Sequence record: NC_047890.1 | Strand: one strand, 5' to 3' | DNA length: 42,686 nucleotides | DNA from: Escherichia phage PGT2 | Part shown: piece after piece, positions 19,949 through 38,516 of the stretch | Position numbering within the stretch: the first letter of the stretch is position 1 | Layout of the letters: every line of letters starts with the position of its first letter | Notes under the pieces: generated by a model | What the model was told of the DNA's origin: nothing | What the model saw: the letters and a program-made list of their open reading frames with translations, nothing else | The model's database searches: none | Made by a program: the position numbers and the translations under genes

Positions 19949-20551
19949 ATGGGAGGCTTACTCGGTGGCGGCGATAACGGTAAATCTCAAGCAAAGGCTA
20001 CCCGTGAAGCTGCCGAACGTCAGGCACAGGCAACATTGCAGGCCGCACGGGAGCAGATAGAGGCTCAGAACCGTCAGGCGGCTGCACAGCAACAATGGTC
20101 CAGTCAACAGGCCGCGCAACAGCGTGAGTTTGAGGCCCAGCTAAATCAGACCAATCAAGAATACCAATCAACCCTACAGGCACAACAGCTTGCTCAGCAG
20201 AAAGCACTCACTGAACAGACTAACGCCATTAACAAGGCGTATCAGGACAAGATGGCTAGTCTGCAACAGCAGGCCAACGAACAGCAGCAGTTTGAGTACA
20301 CCCAGCAGCTTTTACAGTCTTCCGCAGACGCACAGCGCCAGCAGGCACTGAAGGAAGCGCAGGATGCTACTTGGATGCCGCAGGAACAGGTTGAGGTTAC
20401 TCTGGCCGCAGATAGCTCTACGTATCTGGACGAGCAACGTCGTAGACGTCCCGTGAGCAACCTATACAATGGTGCAGGCAACGTGAACACGGCTTCGGCG
20501 AATGGGCAGTCTACGAGTGGCACAGGGCTTTCTAGTGGATTGAGGATTTAA
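19949..20551 (+). CDS. Gln/Ala-rich coiled-coil protein (200 aa), probable virion or assembly protein
   Basis: Strong SD aggagg; low-complexity Q/A-rich sequence; first gene of the structural block. Confidence 0.55.
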   Translation: MGGLLGGGDNGKSQAKATREAAERQAQATLQAAREQIEAQNRQAAAQQQWSSQQAAQQREFEAQLNQTNQEYQSTLQAQQLAQQKALTEQTNAINKAYQDKMASLQQQANEQQQFEYTQQLLQSSADAQRQQALKEAQDATWMPQEQVEVTLAADSSTYLDEQRRRRPVSNLYNGAGNVNTASANGQSTSGTGLSSGLRI

Positions 20552-20552
20552 T

Positions 20553-21491
20553 ATGACCGATGATGAAGCTCGCCAACTTGCTCAATGGGGCGAGGATGAA
20601 ATTGCCCGGATACTCGGACTGAACAGAAACTCATATTTGTCGGCACAGGGTCAGTCAGTAGCGGATTGGTCCAGCCGCTGGTCTTCCGGTCTAAATGACA
20701 TTTCTGGATATTATGACCAAGGTAAGGCTAACTCCCTGTACGCATCCCTTGGTGGGACTACATCGTCCACGTACCTTAACCAGTTGTCGATGCTGGCAGA
20801 GGAATCCAACAAGCTCTACACCTTAATTAATAACCCTAACGCAGTACACTCCAAGCTCCGGGAAGAGGCCGGGAGGCAAGGCGGTGTCGCGCAGTTCTCT
20901 ATCGGTATGGGTTATCGTACTGAAGGTAACGGTGGTTACGTTTACGACCTGATGGGCAACAGATTCAACGACATAACGATGAGTCCGCTGTACAAATCCT
21001 TGTATAGCATGGTTGATAGTTTTAGCAATCAGCAGGGTAAAATCGTCAATGAGTTGAACGCACAGCAGGGCCGTGAGCAGAACTATATCAGTCAGATTAG
21101 TGGTTTATTGCAGCAGGGTACGTTAGCAAAGACCAAAGCTGAACAGGAAGCTCAGAGGAAGGCGCTTGAAGAGCAGTATGCACAGCAACAGGAAGAATTG
21201 AACAAACAGGCTGCAGAGAATGCACGTATCCTCAAGGAGAAGCAGGAAGCTCAGACCAAGATGTTCAACGAGTCCGCTAAGGTTACGGCGGAATCCAACG
21301 CAGCGACATCCCAGCTTCAACAGGCCAAATCTGCTGCCACTCAGGTAGCCAATGTAGGTTCAGCCCGTGGTGGTGAGGCAATATCCTCAACCAACGCAGC
21401 CGCTAAATCAAAGACCAGACAAACCACGCGTACTGAACGCTGGCAGTCAACCCGCTCCCCAGCCGCTGGCGGTGGCGGCATCAACGTTTAA
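20553..21491 (+). CDS. Hypothetical virion-associated protein (312 aa) with Q/E-rich coiled-coil segment
   Basis: SD gagga; coiled-coil-like segment KTKAEQEAQRKALEEQYAQQQEELNKQAAE; immediately upstream of portal. Confidence 0.55.
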   Translation: MTDDEARQLAQWGEDEIARILGLNRNSYLSAQGQSVADWSSRWSSGLNDISGYYDQGKANSLYASLGGTTSSTYLNQLSMLAEESNKLYTLINNPNAVHSKLREEAGRQGGVAQFSIGMGYRTEGNGGYVYDLMGNRFNDITMSPLYKSLYSMVDSFSNQQGKIVNELNAQQGREQNYISQISGLLQQGTLAKTKAEQEAQRKALEEQYAQQQEELNKQAAENARILKEKQEAQTKMFNESAKVTAESNAATSQLQQAKSAATQVANVGSARGGEAISSTNAAAKSKTRQTTRTERWQSTRSPAAGGGGINV

Positions 21492-21502: not shown

Positions 21503-23056
21503 ATGACCAACGCAGACAACGCTGTACAATCAACCGTTACAGCGCCGTCTCGCTGGACTGAACTTGACGGGCAGAGACGTAGCCTAGTGCGTCGGTGGGA
21601 GTCGTATTCCATCTACACCATCCCCTACATCTGCCCTGATGAGAACTACCAGCAGGACACGGATGAAATGACCCACGACTTCCAAGCAGTGGGCGCACAA
21701 GCCGTGAACAGTCTCGCCAACAAAATCATGTTAGCTCTGTTCGCACCATCCAGACCATTCTTCAAACTCGACCCGGATGATGACACCAAGGAAGAGTTGA
21801 TGAAGGTTGGTATCGACCCAGACGCATTGAAAGATGTGTTCTCATCCTTGGAACTTCAGAGCGCAAAGCTGCTGGATACCAAGAATTTCCGCCCGGTAAT
21901 GTTCGAAATCATCAAGTCACTCATCGTCACTGGCAATAGCCTGATGGACTTAGGTAACGAAGTGGCATATGTCCGGGTACGTGATTTTGTAGTGAAGCGT
22001 GACTACTACGGTCGCCCATGCGAAATCATGATTAAGACCTGCCTCAAATTTGAGCAGTTGACCATGGACGTTCAGGAATCCTGCCAGCAGAAGAAGCCGC
22101 ATGGATACACCCCTGACACGAAGGTGGACGTTTACCGTTGGTACAAAGTGGATGAGACGGGTAAACGTATGAAGATGACTTACTGGATAGATGACCTCTC
22201 TCTGGAAGATGGCAAGTATCAAGGGGATTGGAAGAGGGAAGATTGTCCCGTCCGCCCACTGACTTGGTGTCTTACTGCGAATGCCGACTACGGAACTGGT
22301 CTGGTAGAGGAATACGCTGGCGACTTCGCCGCGCTATCCACGATGTCAACCTCTTTCGTTCAGGGTAGTGTTCTCGCTTCCGAGTTCCGCTGGCTCTCCA
22401 ACCCGGCTGGTATGACCCAACCGGAAGATGTCCGCGACTCAAATAACGGTGCAGTAATTCCCGGCGTCGAAGGCGACCTATCCCTTATCTCTGCTGGTCA
22501 GGGTATGGGGCAGACTCTCCAGATGATGATGAACGGGATGGACATCTACACCCGACGTATCAGTCAAGGATTCTTGATGATGTCCGGTGTTACCCGCGAT
22601 GCAGAACGTGTGACCGCCGAAGAGATTCGGATGCAGGCCAACGAACTGGAGAACTCGCTGGGTGGAGCGTATAGCCGACTGGCTATCGACATGCAGCTTC
22701 CAATTGCCAACTGGCTTCTGGATATGCAAGACCTGTCCATCAAAGGCGTCAAGATGAACGTATCCATCGTGACTGGCCTCAACGCACTGTCTCGTAATGG
22801 CGACCTTGATAATCTCAATGCTGCCGTAGGCAATATCACCGCAATGTACCAGATGCCGCCGTTGGCTATGCGACTGCTCAAAATGGATGCAGTCATCTCC
22901 GACATCATGGCAGGCCACGGCCTGTTGGCAGCCCGGTACGTCAAAACTCAAGCTGAAGTTGCTCAAGAAGAACAGCAGGCTCAACAGCAGGCTCTTGCTC
23001 AACAAGGCGCGGCAAACGTGGTAGACCAAGCCACGATGCCTCAACAACCAATGTGA
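21503..23056 (+). CDS. Portal (head-tail connector) protein
   Basis: AVGAQAVNSLANKIMLALF matches T7 gp8 AVGARGLNNLASKLMLALF; size and position fit. Confidence 0.85.
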   Translation: MTNADNAVQSTVTAPSRWTELDGQRRSLVRRWESYSIYTIPYICPDENYQQDTDEMTHDFQAVGAQAVNSLANKIMLALFAPSRPFFKLDPDDDTKEELMKVGIDPDALKDVFSSLELQSAKLLDTKNFRPVMFEIIKSLIVTGNSLMDLGNEVAYVRVRDFVVKRDYYGRPCEIMIKTCLKFEQLTMDVQESCQQKKPHGYTPDTKVDVYRWYKVDETGKRMKMTYWIDDLSLEDGKYQGDWKREDCPVRPLTWCLTANADYGTGLVEEYAGDFAALSTMSTSFVQGSVLASEFRWLSNPAGMTQPEDVRDSNNGAVIPGVEGDLSLISAGQGMGQTLQMMMNGMDIYTRRISQGFLMMSGVTRDAERVTAEEIRMQANELENSLGGAYSRLAIDMQLPIANWLLDMQDLSIKGVKMNVSIVTGLNALSRNGDLDNLNAAVGNITAMYQMPPLAMRLLKMDAVISDIMAGHGLLAARYVKTQAEVAQEEQQAQQQALAQQGAANVVDQATMPQQPM

Positions 23057-23065
23057 GGGTAATTC

Positions 23066-23986
23066 ATGACCGTATCAACTCCGTCAACTCCGGTACAACA
23101 AGCAGCAGCCCCAGCGGCTGCTCCGGCACCACAAGCTCCGGCACAGAGCGGCATCCCGTATGTTCCGCCTGCCCCTGTAGCTCCGGCTGCTCCGGTGGAA
23201 GCACCGCAAGCAACGCTTGACCCGAATCAATTCGCTAACCCGTCTCAGGCAGGCATCCCCGCCGCCTCGGTACAGCAGCCAGCACCGCAGTCTCCACCGC
23301 AGGCTCCCGTAGAGCCGCCAGCACAGCAGACGCCATCGCAGGCAGAATTAACGCTGACAGAGAAACCGCTGTACAAGCACGAGCCTACTGGCAACGTTGC
23401 TTATGATATGGCTATGAATGCCTTCGCAGCTAAGGGATTCTCCCCGGACCACCCTGCGTTCGTCCCGGCATCCAAAGGTGACTTCTCCGCACTGGAGGCG
23501 TTCGTCAAGGAGCAAGGCATCGACCCGCAATATCTGGCACTGGCTCAACAGGCGTACATCCAGATTTCTGAGCACCACAACGCCACTCATGGCGAGACTA
23601 TCAAGAAAGCATTGGAAGTCGCTGGTGGTCAGGAACGCTGGAACAAGGTGCAGGCGTGGGTGCAGGATGTTGCCAGCCCGGAAGAGATTACTTACTACAA
23701 ACAGCAGCTTGAAGCTGGTGGTGTTGCCACCCTGAAGGCTGTGGAATACCTGTCCGGCCTGTACGGACAACATGCAGAGAATGCCCCGGCCCAGCCGAGT
23801 GAATCACCTGCTACCCCGTTCAATACCAATTCGTCACCTACAATAGCAACTAACGGTGCCCCGATTTCCCCGCAAGAATTTCGGGCAGAACTGTCTCGTC
23901 TCATTGACAAGGTAGGGTACTCCGGTCTGGAAACCTCACCGGAATACAAAGCGTTGCAACAACGTCGTCAGGCGTGGCGCGGGTAA
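23066..23986 (+). CDS. Capsid assembly (scaffolding) protein with Pro/Ala/Gln-rich N-terminal region
   Basis: Located between portal and major capsid, 306 aa; assigned by synteny only. Confidence 0.6.
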   Translation: MTVSTPSTPVQQAAAPAAAPAPQAPAQSGIPYVPPAPVAPAAPVEAPQATLDPNQFANPSQAGIPAASVQQPAPQSPPQAPVEPPAQQTPSQAELTLTEKPLYKHEPTGNVAYDMAMNAFAAKGFSPDHPAFVPASKGDFSALEAFVKEQGIDPQYLALAQQAYIQISEHHNATHGETIKKALEVAGGQERWNKVQAWVQDVASPEEITYYKQQLEAGGVATLKAVEYLSGLYGQHAENAPAQPSESPATPFNTNSSPTIATNGAPISPQEFRAELSRLIDKVGYSGLETSPEYKALQQRRQAWRG

Positions 23987-24035: not shown

Positions 24036-25019
24036 ATGGCCTTACCAACTTGGACTCCTACCCGTCCTAACCAACAGAACCAAGCAGGTTCTGTGAATGC
24101 TCTCATCATCGAAGAGTTCACGGGCATCGTTGAGCACACTATTAAGCGTAAGCAGGTGCTGGCCCCGTTTATCCCGATGCGTACCATTCGTGGTACTAAC
24201 ACCCTGACCAACTATGCGGTCGGCAACACCACTCTCGGCACTGTAACCACTGGTACTGAACCAGCGGAAACTTCTGGCCCGGATGTATCCCGCAACTTCT
24301 TGGTTGTGGATACTCACGTCTATGCACGTAACTCCATCGGTCTGCTGGAAACCTTCCAGAGCACCATCGACATCCGTCGTGAGATTGCAATTGAGCATGG
24401 CGAAACCATGTCCAAGTTTACTGACCAAGCCTTCTTCATTCAGGCGGTCAAAGCGGCTCGTGCTGTTCAGAGTTCTTACTCTGGTGGTACTGCTAGTAAA
24501 CCGGGTGGCTTCGGCGTGGGTAACGTCCAGACTCTGGCTGCGGCTGGTGACGAACTGGATGGCACCAAGCTGTACAAAGCAATCAGCAACCTGTTCGTGA
24601 AGATGGAACAGCAGGACGTGCAGCCGAATATGGATGGTATGGTACTTGCTCTGGTTCCGTCTGCGTTCTATGCGCTGCTGGATGCTGAGCAGATTATCAA
24701 CGGTAACTATGTTACTGCTGATGGTACCAGCGTGTCCGGTATGGTGTTTAAGGCGTTCGGTGTGCCTGTTGTTAAATCCAACAACATCCCGACCACCAAC
24801 GTCACCTCTCACCCGCTGGGTGCGAACTACACTGGCGACTTCTCCAAAGTTGTCGGCGTGGTCCTGTCTCCGAAAGCCCTGATGGCTGGTGAGACTATCC
24901 CGCTCCAGAGCGACCTGTTCTACGACAAGCTGCGTAAGACTTGGTACGTGGACTCCGAGCGTGCATTCGGTGTTGCACCGAACCGCAACGAATACGCTGG
25001 CGTTATTGAGAAAGCGTAA
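24036..25019 (+). CDS. Major capsid protein
   Basis: Synteny (after scaffold, followed by a terminator), strong RBS, 327 aa; loose similarity to remembered T7 gp10A. Confidence 0.8.
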   Translation: MALPTWTPTRPNQQNQAGSVNALIIEEFTGIVEHTIKRKQVLAPFIPMRTIRGTNTLTNYAVGNTTLGTVTTGTEPAETSGPDVSRNFLVVDTHVYARNSIGLLETFQSTIDIRREIAIEHGETMSKFTDQAFFIQAVKAARAVQSSYSGGTASKPGGFGVGNVQTLAAAGDELDGTKLYKAISNLFVKMEQQDVQPNMDGMVLALVPSAFYALLDAEQIINGNYVTADGTSVSGMVFKAFGVPVVKSNNIPTTNVTSHPLGANYTGDFSKVVGVVLSPKALMAGETIPLQSDLFYDKLRKTWYVDSERAFGVAPNRNEYAGVIEKA

Positions 25020-25026
25020 TCCAACT

Positions 25027-25059
25027 AGCCTCTACCTTAATTGGTAGGGGCTATTTTTC
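25027..25059 (+). terminator. Rho-independent terminator after the major capsid gene
   Basis: Stem agcctctacc / ggtaggggct (one G-U pair), loop ttaatt, then atttttcc. Confidence 0.65.
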
Positions 25060-35714: not shown

Positions 35715-35743
35715 GGTGGGCTTCGGCCCACCTCTATTTTATT
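35715..35743 (+). terminator. Rho-independent terminator between the gp16-like gene and the tail fiber gene
   Basis: Perfect 7-bp stem ggtgggc / gcccacc with loop ttcg, then tctattttatt. Confidence 0.6.
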
Positions 35744-35753
35744 GGAGATTTTG

Positions 35754-38516
35754 ATGGCTATTACGTTTTATGCTACCAACAACTTCACTGGTGATGGTAC
35801 TACCGTAAACTGGAATATTAACTTCGCAGACGGTTATATCGACATCACCACCGTGAAGGCGCGGTATCTGGATAATACCGGGAGCTACGTTGACATCGCT
35901 ATTTCAAGCGTGGCAGGAAACGTAGTAACCATTTCCCCGGCTGTGGCGGACGGTCAGGAGTTCCAAATCTATCGTGATACAGAGAAGCGGTTCCCGCTGG
36001 TGGACTTCTCTGACGGTGCAATCCTCAACGAGACTAACCTTGACACGCTGGCTACTCAAGCTGTGATGGTGTCTGCTGAGGCATTCGACCAGTCTAACAA
36101 CGGTGTGCGTATCGCAGGTGATTCCTTGGTTGTTGCACAGGGTATCGACGCCAAGGCACAGGAAGCTCTGGACAACTCCGAGGCTGCTGTAGCTACAGCG
36201 AACGGTATCGACGGTAAAGCGCAGACGGCATTGAATACCGCCGCCGCCGCTGTCGCCACGGCTAATGCTGCCACATCTACTGCTGCTGGTGCTGTATCTA
36301 CGGCCAACACCGCACTGTCTACTGCCCACGATGCCGCCGATGACGCAGCTACCGCTATCACTACCGCTAACGGCGCTGTGATTACGGCCAATGCTGCAAC
36401 CACTACGGCCAACGCCGCTAGTGCTGCCGCCTCTGCTGCAACGACTACTGCGAACAGTGCTGCAAACGACGCTGCTACTGCTGTGTCTACTGCGGGTACG
36501 GCCTTGTCTACTGCGAACACCGCATCTACCAACGCCTCTACCGCTGTGTCCACGGCTAACGGCGCTAAGGCTACTGCTGAGGGTATCGAGGCTAAAGCGG
36601 ATTCTGCTTTGGCAGCCTCTGCTACCGCTGTGTCCACAGCTAACTCAGCCGAGGCTACGGCCAACGCTATCGACGGTAAGGCTACGGACGCATTAGACAC
36701 TGCCGACTCCGCTGTGGCTACGGCTAACGCTGCTGTTTCTACGGCTAACTCTGCTACTGCTACGGCTAATGCTGCCTCTTCTACTGCGAGTTCGGCTGCC
36801 TCTGACGCCAGTACCGCCTTGAGCACAGCTAATGCTATTGACGCAAAGGCACAGACTGCTTTGGATAATACCACGGCTCTGGATGCGGCCACCATGAAGA
36901 AAGCCGCCAACTTATCTGATATTGCGGATAAGGCGGCTGCATGGCTTAACGTCCGTCCTATTGGCTCCACGCCATTGGCAGGCGACCCGGTAGGGGATTA
37001 CGATGCTGTTACTAAGCGTTGGGTAGAGAACCTGATTAACACAGGTACTGTCGGTCCAACCATGAACGGGGTGATGAACTTCGGCGTCGGTGACTTCCAT
37101 CTCCGGGATAGCCGCGCGTACATCCAGCCTTATGAGGTTGTCTCTGACGGTCAGTTACTGAACCGCGCTGACTGGCCTGAACTTTGGGCCTACGCCCAAA
37201 TGCTGTCGCCTATAACGGATGCAGCTTGGTTGGCAGACCCTCTCAAGCGCGGCGCTTACTCTACCGGAAACGGAACCACTACCTTCCGAGTACCGGATAG
37301 GAACGGTGTTCAGTCAGGCTCTGTAAGGGCGCTTTTTGGGCGTGGTGACGGTGGGAACTCTTCTATCGGCAGTACCATCATGGAGTCCTTCGTACCGAAT
37401 ATCACGGCTACGTTAAATATGCACGGTGCTGGTCCCGCATCAGAACCTGCCGCTGGTACTAACGTGGCAGGATTTGGTGGTGCCTTGGTTGCTACGGGAG
37501 AGGCTCTCCCGAGATACCTGCGTGGGGTTACTCTGTTATCTGCTGGTGGTAACTCCTATGGTGGAGCTACCTTCGATGCCTCCCGTTCCAGTGCTGCTTA
37601 TGGTCGTGGTGGTCTGACTACGGATGAGGTTCTGCCGCGTAACTTCACTGGTGTATGGGTAATTCGTGCATCTGGCGGCTTCGTAGCGGCTAATACGCAG
37701 TGGCAGGTTATAAACCAAGATGCGACTAGGCCCGGTAACGGTACTGCCGTCTTAGGTGGTAATATTGTATCTGAGTACCGCGTTGGTGGTGCCTTGGAGG
37801 GTACAGCAAACTTCCGTATGGCGGGTACTATCGATGGTTCGTATGGCGCGCGCATTGCTGTTTATAATGCCACATCTTTAAATGGCGCCAGCTTCGATTT
37901 TACAGAGCACGGGAACATAGAGACTCCCCTTGGTAGGGCTATTGTTATAGGCAACTATGGTATAGGTTCGCAAGCAGATGCTATACCTACTTCGAGGGAT
38001 AACGCATTTATCTCTAACGCTGATAGTAATAGTTCTTGGTCTGCTTCTAACGGGGGTGGCTTTCAAATTACATATGCAGCTAACCGTATCGTCCAGTTCT
38101 GGGTAAGTCAAGGTGGTACTACGGCTTATTTCCGTGCTAATAGCACAGACAGTAACCCCCAACGACCGAAGTCTGCATCTCCTTGGGTCACACTCCAGAA
38201 TGCTGGTACTTCGGACGCTAATGTAAAAACCGTCCTCGGTGACTTAGACTTATCTATACCGTTGAGTAATATCAACGCACTGGAGTTTAAGAAATTCCGC
38301 TACAACAAGGATGGTGAGGATGGCCCGGTTCGACGGGGCATTATCGCGCAGCAGGCGCAGAATGTGGACCCGGAGTACGTACATTCTGCGGATAAGTCCG
38401 GGGTTATGACTCTTGATAGTAACCCGCTGCTGTTGGATGCTCTAGCTGCTGTCAAAGCACTATCTGCTAAAGTGGCCGCTCTGGAAGAGCGTATTGATGA
38501 ACTAACTTCTCAGTAA
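35754..38516 (+). CDS. Tail fiber protein: T7 gp17-like N-terminal adaptor, Ala/Thr/Ser-rich repeat shaft, C-terminal intramolecular chaperone domain
   Basis: N-terminus LVDFSDGAILNETNLDTLATQAVMVSAEA parallels T7 gp17 [29 protein letters not shown]; C-terminus GIIAQQAQ...LAAVKALSAKVAALEERIDELT is chaperone-like; ORF track start 35742 is a TTG. Confidence 0.8.
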   Translation: MAITFYATNNFTGDGTTVNWNINFADGYIDITTVKARYLDNTGSYVDIAISSVAGNVVTISPAVADGQEFQIYRDTEKRFPLVDFSDGAILNETNLDTLATQAVMVSAEAFDQSNNGVRIAGDSLVVAQGIDAKAQEALDNSEAAVATANGIDGKAQTALNTAAAAVATANAATSTAAGAVSTANTALSTAHDAADDAATAITTANGAVITANAATTTANAASAAASAATTTANSAANDAATAVSTAGTALSTANTASTNASTAVSTANGAKATAEGIEAKADSALAASATAVSTANSAEATANAIDGKATDALDTADSAVATANAAVSTANSATATANAASSTASSAASDASTALSTANAIDAKAQTALDNTTALDAATMKKAANLSDIADKAAAWLNVRPIGSTPLAGDPVGDYDAVTKRWVENLINTGTVGPTMNGVMNFGVGDFHLRDSRAYIQPYEVVSDGQLLNRADWPELWAYAQMLSPITDAAWLADPLKRGAYSTGNGTTTFRVPDRNGVQSGSVRALFGRGDGGNSSIGSTIMESFVPNITATLNMHGAGPASEPAAGTNVAGFGGALVATGEALPRYLRGVTLLSAGGNSYGGATFDASRSSAAYGRGGLTTDEVLPRNFTGVWVIRASGGFVAANTQWQVINQDATRPGNGTAVLGGNIVSEYRVGGALEGTANFRMAGTIDGSYGARIAVYNATSLNGASFDFTEHGNIETPLGRAIVIGNYGIGSQADAIPTSRDNAFISNADSNSSWSASNGGGFQITYAANRIVQFWVSQGGTTAYFRANSTDSNPQRPKSASPWVTLQNAGTSDANVKTVLGDLDLSIPLSNINALEFKKFRYNKDGEDGPVRRGIIAQQAQNVDPEYVHSADKSGVMTLDSNPLLLDALAAVKALSAKVAALEERIDELTSQ
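36100..36900. repeat. Imperfect tandem codon repeats (STAN/ATAN units) inside the tail fiber gene
   Basis: About 16 copies of nCyACnGCnAAy (encoding x-T-A-N) at roughly 7-, 11- and 14-residue spacing. Confidence 0.7.

What the first reader, a model, noticed from the sequence alone, without database searches (positions are those of the whole stretch)
23066..23400. Scaffold-position protein with about 100 residues of Pro/Ala/Gln-rich low-complexity N-terminus
The first ~100 aa are proline/alanine/glutamine-rich (APAAAPAPQAPAQ..., QQPAPQSPPQAPVEPPAQQ), unusual for the acidic helical scaffolds of T7. It may be an intrinsically disordered region or mark a fused function.
Basis: seen in the sequence. 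Interest (0 to 1): 0.3.

Follow-up and report, generated by a model that had tools for sequence, protein, structure and literature searches.

The report
Disordered Pro/Ala/Gln tail of phage scaffold
The proline/alanine/glutamine-rich stretch is real, but it is the ordinary floppy N-terminal tail that every related phage head-scaffolding protein carries, in a gene already annotated in the published phages PGT2 and phiKT.

Summary
ORF 23066-23986 (+, 306 aa) lies between the portal and major capsid genes. Its first ~93 residues are 24% Pro, 23% Ala and 14% Gln, the most Pro-rich 100-residue stretch in this phage's proteome.

The window is the complete Escherichia phage PGT2 genome (42,686 bp). 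The protein is 100% identical to PGT2's annotated "scaffold-like protein" and 97.4% identical to phiKT gp16.

The tail is not special to this phage. All 140 full-length family representatives examined carry a 28-102-residue low-complexity tail before the conserved core. These tails are Pro/Ala-rich, almost free of Arg and net negative. T7 gp9 has an acidic tail in the equivalent position.

AlphaFold2 gives coil with low confidence for residues 1-105. It gives confident helices for 111-238 and for a C-terminal helix pair at 269-302. No domain, fold or RNA element lies in the tail, so "fused function" is unsupported.

PGT2/phiKT merely have the longest tail seen (102 residues) and an unusually Gln-rich, weakly charged one.

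The most likely role is inferred, not shown: a flexible, non-sticky, DNA-repelled spacer in the procapsid, perhaps carrying short docking motifs.

Interest is low; the feature is already known.

The parts
23055..23059 (+). Shine-Dalgarno GAGGG, 6 nt upstream of the ATG; it overlaps the portal stop codon (23054-23056)
   Evidence: Read directly from the sequence. The same start is annotated in phiKT gp16.
23066..23986 (+). Head scaffolding protein gene, 306 aa. It is 100% identical to the Escherichia phage PGT2 'scaffold-like protein' and 97.4% identical to phiKT gp16.
   Evidence: (phrog_1018, E 7.7e-48).
23066..23344 (+). Codons 1-93: Pro/Ala/Gln-rich low-complexity N-terminal tail, predicted disordered.
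   Evidence: Composition. AlphaFold2 gives coil with pLDDT 53-73. No family hit when scanned alone. Equivalent tails occur in 140/140 relatives.
23147..23164 (+). Codons 28-33, SGIPYV: candidate short linear motif inside the tail. It contains the tail's only Tyr.
   Evidence: Identical SGIPYV in metagenomic relative P0005, within otherwise unalignable sequence. Function untested.
23216..23254 (+). Codons 51-63, LDPNQFANPSQAG: candidate short linear motif. It contains the tail's only Phe.
   Evidence: L(D/N)P(N/Q)(Q/D)F..SQ.G is shared by the window protein and relatives P0002, P0006 and P0007, i.e. 4 of the 9 sequences aligned. The tripeptides DPN, LD. and L.L are enriched over shuffles across the family. 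Function untested.
23345..23395 (+). Codons 94-110, ELTLTEKPLYKHEPTGN: conserved boundary segment that opens the family core
   Evidence: Alignments. tblastn matches to other phages begin at residues 96-112.
23396..23779 (+). Codons 111-238: helical core domain, presumed self-association body. Residues 162-239 are remotely similar to T7 gp9.
   Evidence: AlphaFold2 helices with pLDDT 88-97. phrog_1052 E 3.5e-7. Core length is 139 +/- 1.6 aa across the family.
23780..23869 (+). Codons 239-268: second low-complexity linker (Pro/Ser/Thr/Asn-rich)
   Evidence: pLDDT 52-64 and no secondary structure. Length is conserved at 25.6 +/- 2.1 aa.
23870..23986 (+). Codons 269-306 plus stop: C-terminal helix pair ending ...YKALQQRRQAWRG, presumed coat-binding hook
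   Evidence: pLDDT 92-96. Y294, L297 and R300 are nearly invariant. Net charge is positive across the family, +3.45 +/- 1.3. The coat-binding role is inferred by analogy with the P22 gp8 hook (PMC12005531).

Best explanation
Shown: the region encodes the N-terminal tail of the phage's head scaffolding protein. The protein belongs to the phiKMV/Cd1-type scaffold family of Autographiviridae (PHROG 1018), which is remotely related to T7 gp9. Its layout is: a variable unstructured tail (residues 1-93); a conserved boundary motif (94-110); a helical core of fixed length (111-238); a short flexible linker (239-268); and a basic C-terminal helix pair (269-302). A tail of this kind is a constant of the family. 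What is conserved is its make-up, not its sequence or length: rich in Pro/Ala, almost no Arg or aromatic residues, and always net negative. PGT2 and phiKT sit at the long, Gln-rich, weakly charged extreme. Inferred: the C-terminal helix pair hooks onto the inner face of the coat protein and the core self-associates. The tail projects into the procapsid lumen as an extended, highly soluble, non-sticky polymer. In that role it would keep scaffold subunits from aggregating, occupy space, avoid binding DNA, and be displaced as DNA is packaged. Its few clustered hydrophobic/acidic islands (SGIPYV, LDPNQF) may be weak docking sites for the portal or internal core proteins.
For: Identity and position. 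The window length of 42,686 bp equals the published PGT2 genome length, and the protein is 100% identical to the PGT2 scaffold-like protein. Synteny of portal, scaffold and capsid is kept in Percy, GAP227, RSB1, phi80-18 and a 45-kb metagenomic relative. Disorder: AlphaFold2 with a 146-sequence alignment gives no secondary structure and pLDDT 53-73 for residues 1-105, against >90 for the helices. By my count of the sequence, Pro recurs at least every 7 residues. Family-wide tail: 140/140 representatives, 28-102 aa, median 62. Pooled tail versus core composition is P 19.5% vs 4.2%, R 0.1% vs 4.7%, F+Y+W 0.5% vs 7.2%, and all 140 tails are net negative. Only the tail varies in length: tail sd 15.5 aa, core 1.6, linker 2.1, C-terminal part 1.9. 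Tail net charge does not scale with tail length (rho 0.01). T7 parallel: PF05396 covers only gp9 residues 123-305, leaving a 122-aa tail outside it; the first 120 residues are 29% Asp+Glu. Literature: these proteins are treated as scaffolds expected to be absent from mature virions (PMC3765740). The P22 scaffold has a comparable hook, flexible loop and body (PMC12005531).
Against: No experiment on this family's tail was found in the literature searches, so its role is inference from composition and analogy. Simple charge-hydropathy and TOP-IDP scales do not clearly call the tail disordered, because of its Ala/Val content and low charge. Tail lengths from 28 to 102 aa, with no alignable sequence, are also what a tolerated, nearly neutral low-complexity expansion would look like. 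Scaffold was detected by LC-MS/MS in phi80-18 and Ar-KM virion preparations, so complete expulsion is not certain. The survey covers only the 150 best-scoring of 384 family hits, and metagenomic start codons are unverified.
Confidence: 0.8

Rival explanations
1. The tail is mainly a carrier of short linear motifs that recruit the portal or the internal core/ejection proteins into the nascent procapsid. The Pro/Ala/Gln sequence serves only as spacing between these motifs.
For: Within otherwise unalignable tails, SGIPYV is identical in the window protein and P0005. LDPNQF..SQ.G is shared by the window protein and three relatives whose cores are 57-75% identical to it. Across 140 tails the rare hydrophobic residues cluster: a phi-x-phi-[GDENT] motif occurs in 70/140 against 33 +/- 4.5 in shuffles (maximum 47), and the tripeptides LNI, LSL, LTL, LDD, KLD, DPN and IGD are enriched. 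In P22 the scaffold body contacts the portal and is proposed to dock the ejection proteins (PMC12005531).
Against: The motifs are absent from several close relatives (P0003, P0008, P0009) and are not positionally fixed. A looser hydrophobic-plus-acidic motif is hardly enriched: 72/140 against 58 +/- 5 in shuffles. No partner has been identified. Shared islands could simply be remnants of recent common ancestry.
Confidence: 0.2
2. The tail is a functionally neutral low-complexity expansion, produced by slippage or indel drift in a tolerant N-terminus and not selected for anything.
For: Length varies from 28 to 102 aa and the sequence is not conserved even among close relatives. Short in-frame DNA repeats lie in the region: 9 bp x2 at 23075-23092 and 12 bp x2.1 at 23283-23307.
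Against: No full-length family member lacks a tail; the minimum is 28 aa in 140 sequences. Composition is strongly constrained in ways drift would not maintain: Arg 0.1% against 4.7% in the core, all 140 tails net negative, and charge independent of length. The distantly related T7 gp9 keeps a tail of similar size with a different chemistry.
Confidence: 0.12
3. The Pro/Ala/Gln region marks a fused extra domain or function joined to a scaffold, for example a protease, a cell-wall or membrane-spanning segment, or a decoration function.
Confidence: 0.02
4. The tail is not translated (mis-called start), or the DNA here carries another element such as an overlapping gene or a structured RNA, which would explain the scarcity of synonymous changes relative to phiKT.
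For: Against phiKT, codons 1-100 show 1 synonymous and 3 non-synonymous changes, while codons 101-306 show 32 synonymous and 5 non-synonymous changes.
Against: The only in-frame alternative start before the conserved core is GTG at codon 44, which has no Shine-Dalgarno. The next starts, Met115 and Met117, lie inside the conserved core. All relatives encode a tail. Low divergence is not special here: 22% of 300-bp windows along the PGT2-phiKT alignment have 4 or fewer differences, and the quiet tract runs from 22800 to 23400 across the portal/scaffold boundary. This fits the mosaic recombination described for these two phages (PMC5773715). There is no Rfam match in the whole window. RNA folding z-score is -1.41. 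ORFs in other frames are 55 aa or shorter.
Confidence: 0.02

Closest known systems
Escherichia phage PGT2 'scaffold-like protein' (UniProt A0A2D2W2T6; genome MG201401) and phiKT gp16 'head scaffolding protein' (YP_007006599.1)
   Same: This is the same gene. It is 100% identical over 306 aa to the PGT2 entry and 97.4% identical to phiKT gp16. The window length equals the published PGT2 genome length.
   Different: Nothing differs. Neither record nor the genome announcement comments on the N-terminal tail.
phiKMV/Cd1-type Autographiviridae scaffolding proteins (PHROG 1018): e.g. Caulobacter phage Percy gp38, Ralstonia phage RSB1 ORF31, Cronobacter phage GAP227_34, Yersinia phage phi80-18 Gp43
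   Same: Same gene position, and same core, linker and C-terminal helices (25-35% identity over residues ~100-306). All carry a low-complexity, Arg-poor, net-negative N-terminal tail.
   Different: Their tails are shorter (median 62 aa) and differ in composition: Ala/Pro/Glu in Percy, Ala/Gly/Pro/Thr in RSB1, Ala/Gly/Glu in GAP227. PGT2 and phiKT have the longest tail seen (102 aa), and it is unusually Gln-rich with few charges.
T7 gp9 scaffolding / capsid assembly protein (Pfam PF05396, PHROG 1052)
   Same: Same position between portal and capsid genes and similar size (307 aa). It has an N-terminal non-conserved ~122-aa tail outside the Pfam domain. There is remote similarity around the AGG(R/Q)ER(F/W) helix: phrog_1052 E 3.5e-7 and hhalign E 0.0045. 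T7-like capsid assembly proteins appear among the Foldseek BFVD hits.
   Different: The first 120 residues of T7's tail are acidic (29% Asp+Glu, 3% Pro) rather than Pro/Ala/Gln-rich. The window protein does not reach PF05396 at E <= 1, and only about 78 residues align.
P22 gp8 scaffolding protein
   Same: It works alike (inference): a C-terminal helix-turn-helix hook that binds coat, a flexible loop, and a helical body that self-associates and contacts the portal. It leaves the procapsid on DNA packaging (PMC12005531).
   Different: No sequence or fold match was found. From my own knowledge, not checked here, P22 gp8 has no long Pro-rich tail.
Ala/Pro-rich natural linkers and engineered Pro/Ala/Ser ('PAS') polypeptides (from my own knowledge, not tested here)
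   Same: Uncharged or weakly charged Pro/Ala-rich chains behave as expanded, very soluble random coils. This is the physical behaviour proposed for the tail. The only weak PDB sequence hit to the tail was the Ala/Pro-rich N-terminal extension of myosin light chain 1 (E 1.8).
   Different: This is an analogy of composition only, with no homology implied. The phage tail also contains Gln, a few acidic residues and short hydrophobic islands.

Membership tests
phiKMV/Cd1-type Autographiviridae head scaffolding protein (PHROG 1018) | Significant full-length match to the family profile | tested here: met
   phrog_1018 E 7.7e-48, protein residues 5-305 against profile positions 5-276 of 280. 384 homologues at E <= 0.001.
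phiKMV/Cd1-type Autographiviridae head scaffolding protein (PHROG 1018) | Gene lies between the portal (head-tail connector) and the major capsid protein | tested here: met
   Portal 21503-23056 (PF12236, E 2.5e-57); capsid 24036-25019 (phrog_267, E 9e-88). The same order holds in 5 relatives.
phiKMV/Cd1-type Autographiviridae head scaffolding protein (PHROG 1018) | Helical core plus basic C-terminal helix pair (...SPEY..L..RR.A.RG) | tested here: met
   AlphaFold2 helices 111-238 and 269-302 with pLDDT > 88. Y294, L297 and R300 are nearly invariant. C-terminal net charge is +2 here and +3.45 on average in the family.
phiKMV/Cd1-type Autographiviridae head scaffolding protein (PHROG 1018) | Low-complexity N-terminal tail before the YEPTGD-type core start | tested here: met
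   Present in 140/140 full-length representatives. It is 102 aa here, the longest seen.
phiKMV/Cd1-type Autographiviridae head scaffolding protein (PHROG 1018) | Present in procapsids, required for assembly, and released from mature heads | not testable with these tools
   Only literature on relatives is available. It is expected to be absent from virions (PMC3765740) but was detected by LC-MS/MS in phi80-18 and Ar-KM preparations.
T7 gp9 capsid assembly protein (Pfam PF05396 / PHROG 1052) | Match to PF05396 at or above the gathering score | tested here: not met
   No Pfam family at E <= 1 for the window protein. T7 gp9 itself scores E 6.6e-76.
T7 gp9 capsid assembly protein (Pfam PF05396 / PHROG 1052) | Detectable remote homology of the core | tested here: inconclusive
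   phrog_1052 E 3.5e-7, but over residues 162-239 only. hhalign E 0.0045 with probability 7.8% against the single T7 sequence. T7-like capsid assembly proteins are among the BFVD Foldseek hits.
P22 gp8-type scaffolding protein | Sequence or fold similarity to the solved gp8 coat-binding domain | tested here: not met
Scaffold fused to another function (protease-scaffold as in lambda C/Nu3, or other added domain) | A recognisable second domain in the extra region | tested here: not met
   Residues 1-100 scanned alone match no PHROG. The whole protein matches no Pfam or NCBIfam family. No predicted structure in residues 1-105.

The most novel reading that the evidence does not exclude
The tail is an active assembly element rather than a passive spacer. 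One possibility is that its conserved islands (SGIPYV, LDPNQF..SQ.G and the L-x-L/IGD-type motifs seen across the family and in T7 gp9's 'RIGDG') dock the portal or the internal core proteins. The other is that the Pro/Gln-rich chain makes scaffold molecules condense into a dense phase that nucleates procapsids; one relative's tail is 46% Gln. In either case the freely variable tail length would tune that behaviour. This would give a general role to the disordered tails shared by Autographiviridae scaffolds.
Probability: 0.15. Interest if true: 0.45.

Novelty: already known. Interest (0 to 1): 0.12.

Why it matters
It matters little for discovery. The gene is an annotated scaffolding protein of a published phage, and its odd-looking N-terminus is the family norm. 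The survey does yield one modest by-product. In this scaffold family every module has a fixed length except the N-terminal tail. The tail is constrained in chemistry (Pro/Ala-rich, Arg-free, net negative, charge independent of length) but not in sequence, and T7 gp9 solves the same position with an acidic tail. I found no paper describing this pattern. It gives a simple, testable handle on what disordered scaffold tails do during procapsid assembly and scaffold exit, through tail deletion or swap experiments in PGT2/phiKT or T7.

Tried and rejected
1. Hidden constraint on the DNA. Codons 1-100 have only 1 synonymous change against phiKT, versus 32 in codons 101-306. This suggested an overlapping element. 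I rejected it for four reasons. 22% of 300-bp windows along the alignment are equally conserved, and the quiet tract spans the portal/scaffold junction. This agrees with the mosaic recombination reported for PGT2 and phiKT. Rfam finds nothing in the window. RNA folding is unremarkable, z -1.41.

2. Wrong start codon. Rejected: there is no credible internal start before the conserved core.

4. Simple disorder scales. The charge-hydropathy plot and TOP-IDP do not discriminate for this low-charge, Ala/Val-containing sequence. I relied on AlphaFold2 confidence and on proline spacing instead.

5. Tandem DNA repeats as the origin of the tail. Only two tiny two-copy repeats are present, so there is no repeat array.

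6. A repeated phage-promoter motif in the 49-bp scaffold-capsid spacer. The sequence is unique in the genome and no sigma-70-like site is present.

7. Correlations. Tail length does not correlate with tail charge or with linker length.

8. Literature. Searches found no paper discussing Pro/Ala-rich scaffold tails. They gave only general statements that these proteins are scaffolds.

Full report
**What is at the coordinates.**
The interval 23066-23400 is the 5' third of ORF 23066..23986 (+ strand, 306 aa). The ORF starts at an ATG six bases after a GAGGG Shine-Dalgarno at 23055-23059. That Shine-Dalgarno overlaps the stop codon of the upstream gene.

The upstream gene (21503-23056) is the portal / head-tail connector (PF12236, E 2.5e-57; phrog_449, E 8e-174). 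The downstream gene (24036-25019) is the major capsid protein (phrog_267, E 9e-88). Tail tube A (PF17212) follows it. The 'scaffold position' is therefore correct.

**Is the composition more than chance?**
- Residues 1-100 are 24% Pro, 23% Ala and 14% Gln, with no Arg, one Lys and net charge -4.
- The phage proteome averages 4.0% Pro, 10.4% Ala and 4.8% Gln.
- Among 1,777 sliding 100-residue windows over all genes, this is the top window for Pro and for P+A+Q. It scores 0.61, against 0.19 +/- 0.07 in other genes.
- By my count of the sequence, no Pro-free run in residues 1-90 exceeds six residues, which leaves no room for regular helices or sheets.
The low-complexity part ends near residue 93 (23344). 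Residues 94-110 (ELTLTEKPLYKHEPTGN) already belong to the conserved core.

**Identity of the phage and the gene.**
- The window aligns along its length at 85-97% nucleotide identity to Escherichia phage phiKT (Autographiviridae, Ermolevavirus).
- In phiKT the orthologue is gp16, 'head scaffolding protein', 97.4% identical.
- A Foldseek search of viral models returned 'Scaffold-like protein [Escherichia phage PGT2]', 306 aa, 100% identical.
- The PGT2 genome announcement gives a genome length of 42,686 bp, exactly the window length (PMC5773715).
- The window is therefore the published PGT2 genome, and the gene is already annotated.

**Family membership.**
- The protein matches PHROG 1018 ('head scaffolding protein') end to end (E 7.7e-48).
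- Over residues 162-239 it also matches PHROG 1052 (E 3.5e-7), the T7 gp9 family. T7 gp9 itself scores 3.4e-111 against that family.
- It has no Pfam or NCBIfam match.
- The first 100 residues scanned alone match nothing.
- tblastn against 50,697 phage genomes finds 116 records, nearly all annotated as scaffolding proteins. Apart from phiKT, the listed matches begin at residues 90-112, with the low-complexity filter on.

**Structure prediction.**
AlphaFold2 was run with a 146-sequence alignment (mean pLDDT 80.9). It gives:

| Residues | Prediction | pLDDT |
|---|---|---|
| 1-105 | no secondary structure | 53-73 |
| 111-238 | confident helical domain | 88-97 |
| 239-268 | second unstructured linker (Pro/Ser/Thr/Asn-rich) | 52-64 |
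| 269-302 | two confident C-terminal helices | 92-96 |

- Among predicted viral structures, the significant hits are scaffolding or 'capsid assembly' proteins from across Autographiviridae, including T7-like phages.
- Simple charge-hydropathy and TOP-IDP scales are equivocal for the tail, because it is weakly charged and contains Ala and Val.

**Is the tail standard in relatives?
An exhaustive phmmer search found 384 representatives at E <= 0.001. I aligned 146 of the best and split each at the conserved core start.
- All 140 full-length sequences carry a tail before the core. Tail length runs from 28 to 102 aa, with median 62.
- Pooled tail composition against core composition: Pro 19.5% vs 4.2%, Thr 10.8% vs 4.8%, Arg 0.1% vs 4.7%, Phe+Tyr+Trp 0.5% vs 7.2%. 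All 140 tails are net negative.
- Named cultured examples show the same pattern with different compositions: Caulobacter phage Percy gp38 (65 aa, Ala/Pro/acidic), Ralstonia phage RSB1 ORF31 (Ala/Gly/Pro/Thr), Cronobacter phage GAP227_34 (Ala/Gly/Glu) and Yersinia phage phi80-18 Gp43 (Pro/Ala/Glu).
- T7 gp9 does likewise. Pfam PF05396 covers only its residues 123-305, leaving a 122-aa tail outside the domain. The first 120 residues are 29% Asp+Glu.
- The refutation condition is therefore met. The tail is a family constant, conserved in kind but not in sequence.
- PGT2 and phiKT have the longest tail among the 140. It is more Gln-rich (14% vs 6%) and less charged than average.

**What varies and what does not.**

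| Module | Length across the family (aa) |
|---|---|
| N-terminal tail | 63 +/- 15.5 |
| Helical core | 139 +/- 1.6 |
| Linker | 25.6 +/- 2.1 |
| C-terminal part | 37.8 +/- 1.9 |

- Tail net charge (-5.7 +/- 2.7) is independent of tail length (Spearman rho 0.01). Longer tails are therefore built from uncharged Pro/Ala/Gln/Thr residues.
- The C-terminal helix pair is net positive (+3.45 +/- 1.3; +2 here).
- Among nine relatives whose cores are 50-75% identical, the tails cannot be aligned except at a few islands. These are SGIPYV (the window protein and P0005), L(D/N)P(N/Q)(Q/D)F..SQ.G (4 of 9 sequences) and the boundary phi-T-L motif.
- Family-wide, the sparse hydrophobic residues cluster. A phi-x-phi-[GDENT] motif occurs in 70/140 tails, against 33 +/- 4.5 in shuffles. 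L.L, LD. and DPN tripeptides are enriched. A looser motif is barely enriched, 72 against 58 +/- 5.

**Mechanism.**
Shown: this is the scaffolding protein. Its N-terminal ~93 residues are a compositionally constrained, structure-less tail typical of the family.

Inferred, by analogy with the P22 scaffold, which has a C-terminal hook, a flexible loop and a self-associating body (PMC12005531):
- The basic C-terminal helix pair binds the inner coat surface.
- The 239-268 linker gives it freedom of movement.
- The helical core self-associates.
- The tail points into the lumen as an expanded, soluble, non-sticky, weakly anionic chain. In that role it would prevent aggregation, occupy space, avoid binding DNA, and be displaced during packaging.

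The near-total exclusion of Arg and aromatic residues and the universal net negative charge are the main support for this. I put about 0.45 on this specific role. I put about 0.2 on a docking-motif role and about 0.12 on a nearly neutral expansion.

Published work on relatives treats the protein as a scaffold absent from mature virions (PMC3765740). It was nevertheless detected by LC-MS/MS in phi80-18 and Ar-KM preparations. None of the papers I found discusses the tail.

**Leads that failed.**
- The scarcity of synonymous differences from phiKT in codons 1-100 (1, against 32 in codons 101-306) looked like hidden constraint. It reflects patchy divergence instead. 22% of 300-bp windows are as conserved, and the quiet tract crosses the portal/scaffold boundary. 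This matches the recombination mosaic reported for these two phages.
- There is no Rfam match and no unusual RNA folding (z -1.41).
- Other-frame ORFs are 55 aa or shorter.
- No credible internal start codon exists.
- Only two two-copy micro-repeats lie in the DNA.

**Verdict.**
The feature is real, and the 'intrinsically disordered region' reading is reasonable. However, it is the normal N-terminal tail of an already annotated scaffolding protein of phage PGT2, not a fused function and not an anomaly. Interest is low (0.12) and novelty is 'already known'. The one modest take-away is the family-wide rule that only the tail varies in length while its chemistry is held constant, which deletion or swap experiments could test.

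Noticed in passing
window 1-42686: The window is the complete genome of Escherichia phage PGT2 (MG201401). Its length of 42,686 bp equals the published figure, and the scaffold protein is 100% identical to the PGT2 entry. It is circularly permuted relative to the phiKT RefSeq record, and its identity to phiKT is mosaic (85-97% by segment).
   Followed up: yes
window 19949-20551 and 20553-21491 (+): Two ORFs lie just upstream of the portal. One is 200 aa, Ala/Gln-rich and matches phrog_9212. The other is 312 aa with a Gln/Ala-rich C-terminal half. Both are intact in phiKT (NC_019520 15341-15943 and 15945-16883) but unannotated there; that record shows only a predicted 'promoter P2' in the gap. 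The 312-aa protein is 46% identical to the gene before the portal in a 45-kb metagenomic relative (L008 388-1419), so these are probably real genes. They occupy the slot of T7 gp6.7/gp7.3 and Ar-KM gp34.
   Followed up: partly
window 35742-38516 (+), roughly residues 100-400 (about 36040-36940): The tail-fibre ORF contains a long, extremely low-complexity Ala/Thr/Ser/Asn repeat ('STAN', 'TANAA', 'ALSTAN'). It has the lowest sequence entropy in the proteome, 2.45 bits per 100-aa window.
   Followed up: no
window 25026-25053 (+): A terminator-like hairpin (11 pairs) followed by a T-run lies 7 bases after the major capsid stop codon. T7 (Tphi), Caulobacter phage Percy and Cronobacter phage GAP227 have an annotated terminator or stem-loop in the same place.
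   Followed up: no
window 23780-23869 (+): The scaffold has a second, shorter low-complexity segment at residues 239-268 (Pro/Ser/Thr/Asn-rich, pLDDT 52-64), between the helical core and the C-terminal helix pair. Unlike the N-terminal tail, its length is tightly conserved in the family (25.6 +/- 2.1 aa).
   Followed up: partly
P0007 (metagenomic relative; locus L009 23-889): One close relative of the scaffold (62% identical over the 69% of the query that aligns) has an N-terminal tail that is 46% glutamine, with poly-Q-like runs interrupted by Pro. It still keeps the LDPQQF island.
   Followed up: no
L005 1943-2779 and L007 1979-2785 (GAP227_34, phi80-18 g43): The annotated scaffolds of the Melnykvirinae phages begin with a shared hydrophobic/basic peptide, MLFMNI(A/S)R(K/R)FG, ahead of the low-complexity tail. 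This is either a clade-specific N-terminal motif or a start codon called too far upstream.
   Followed up: no
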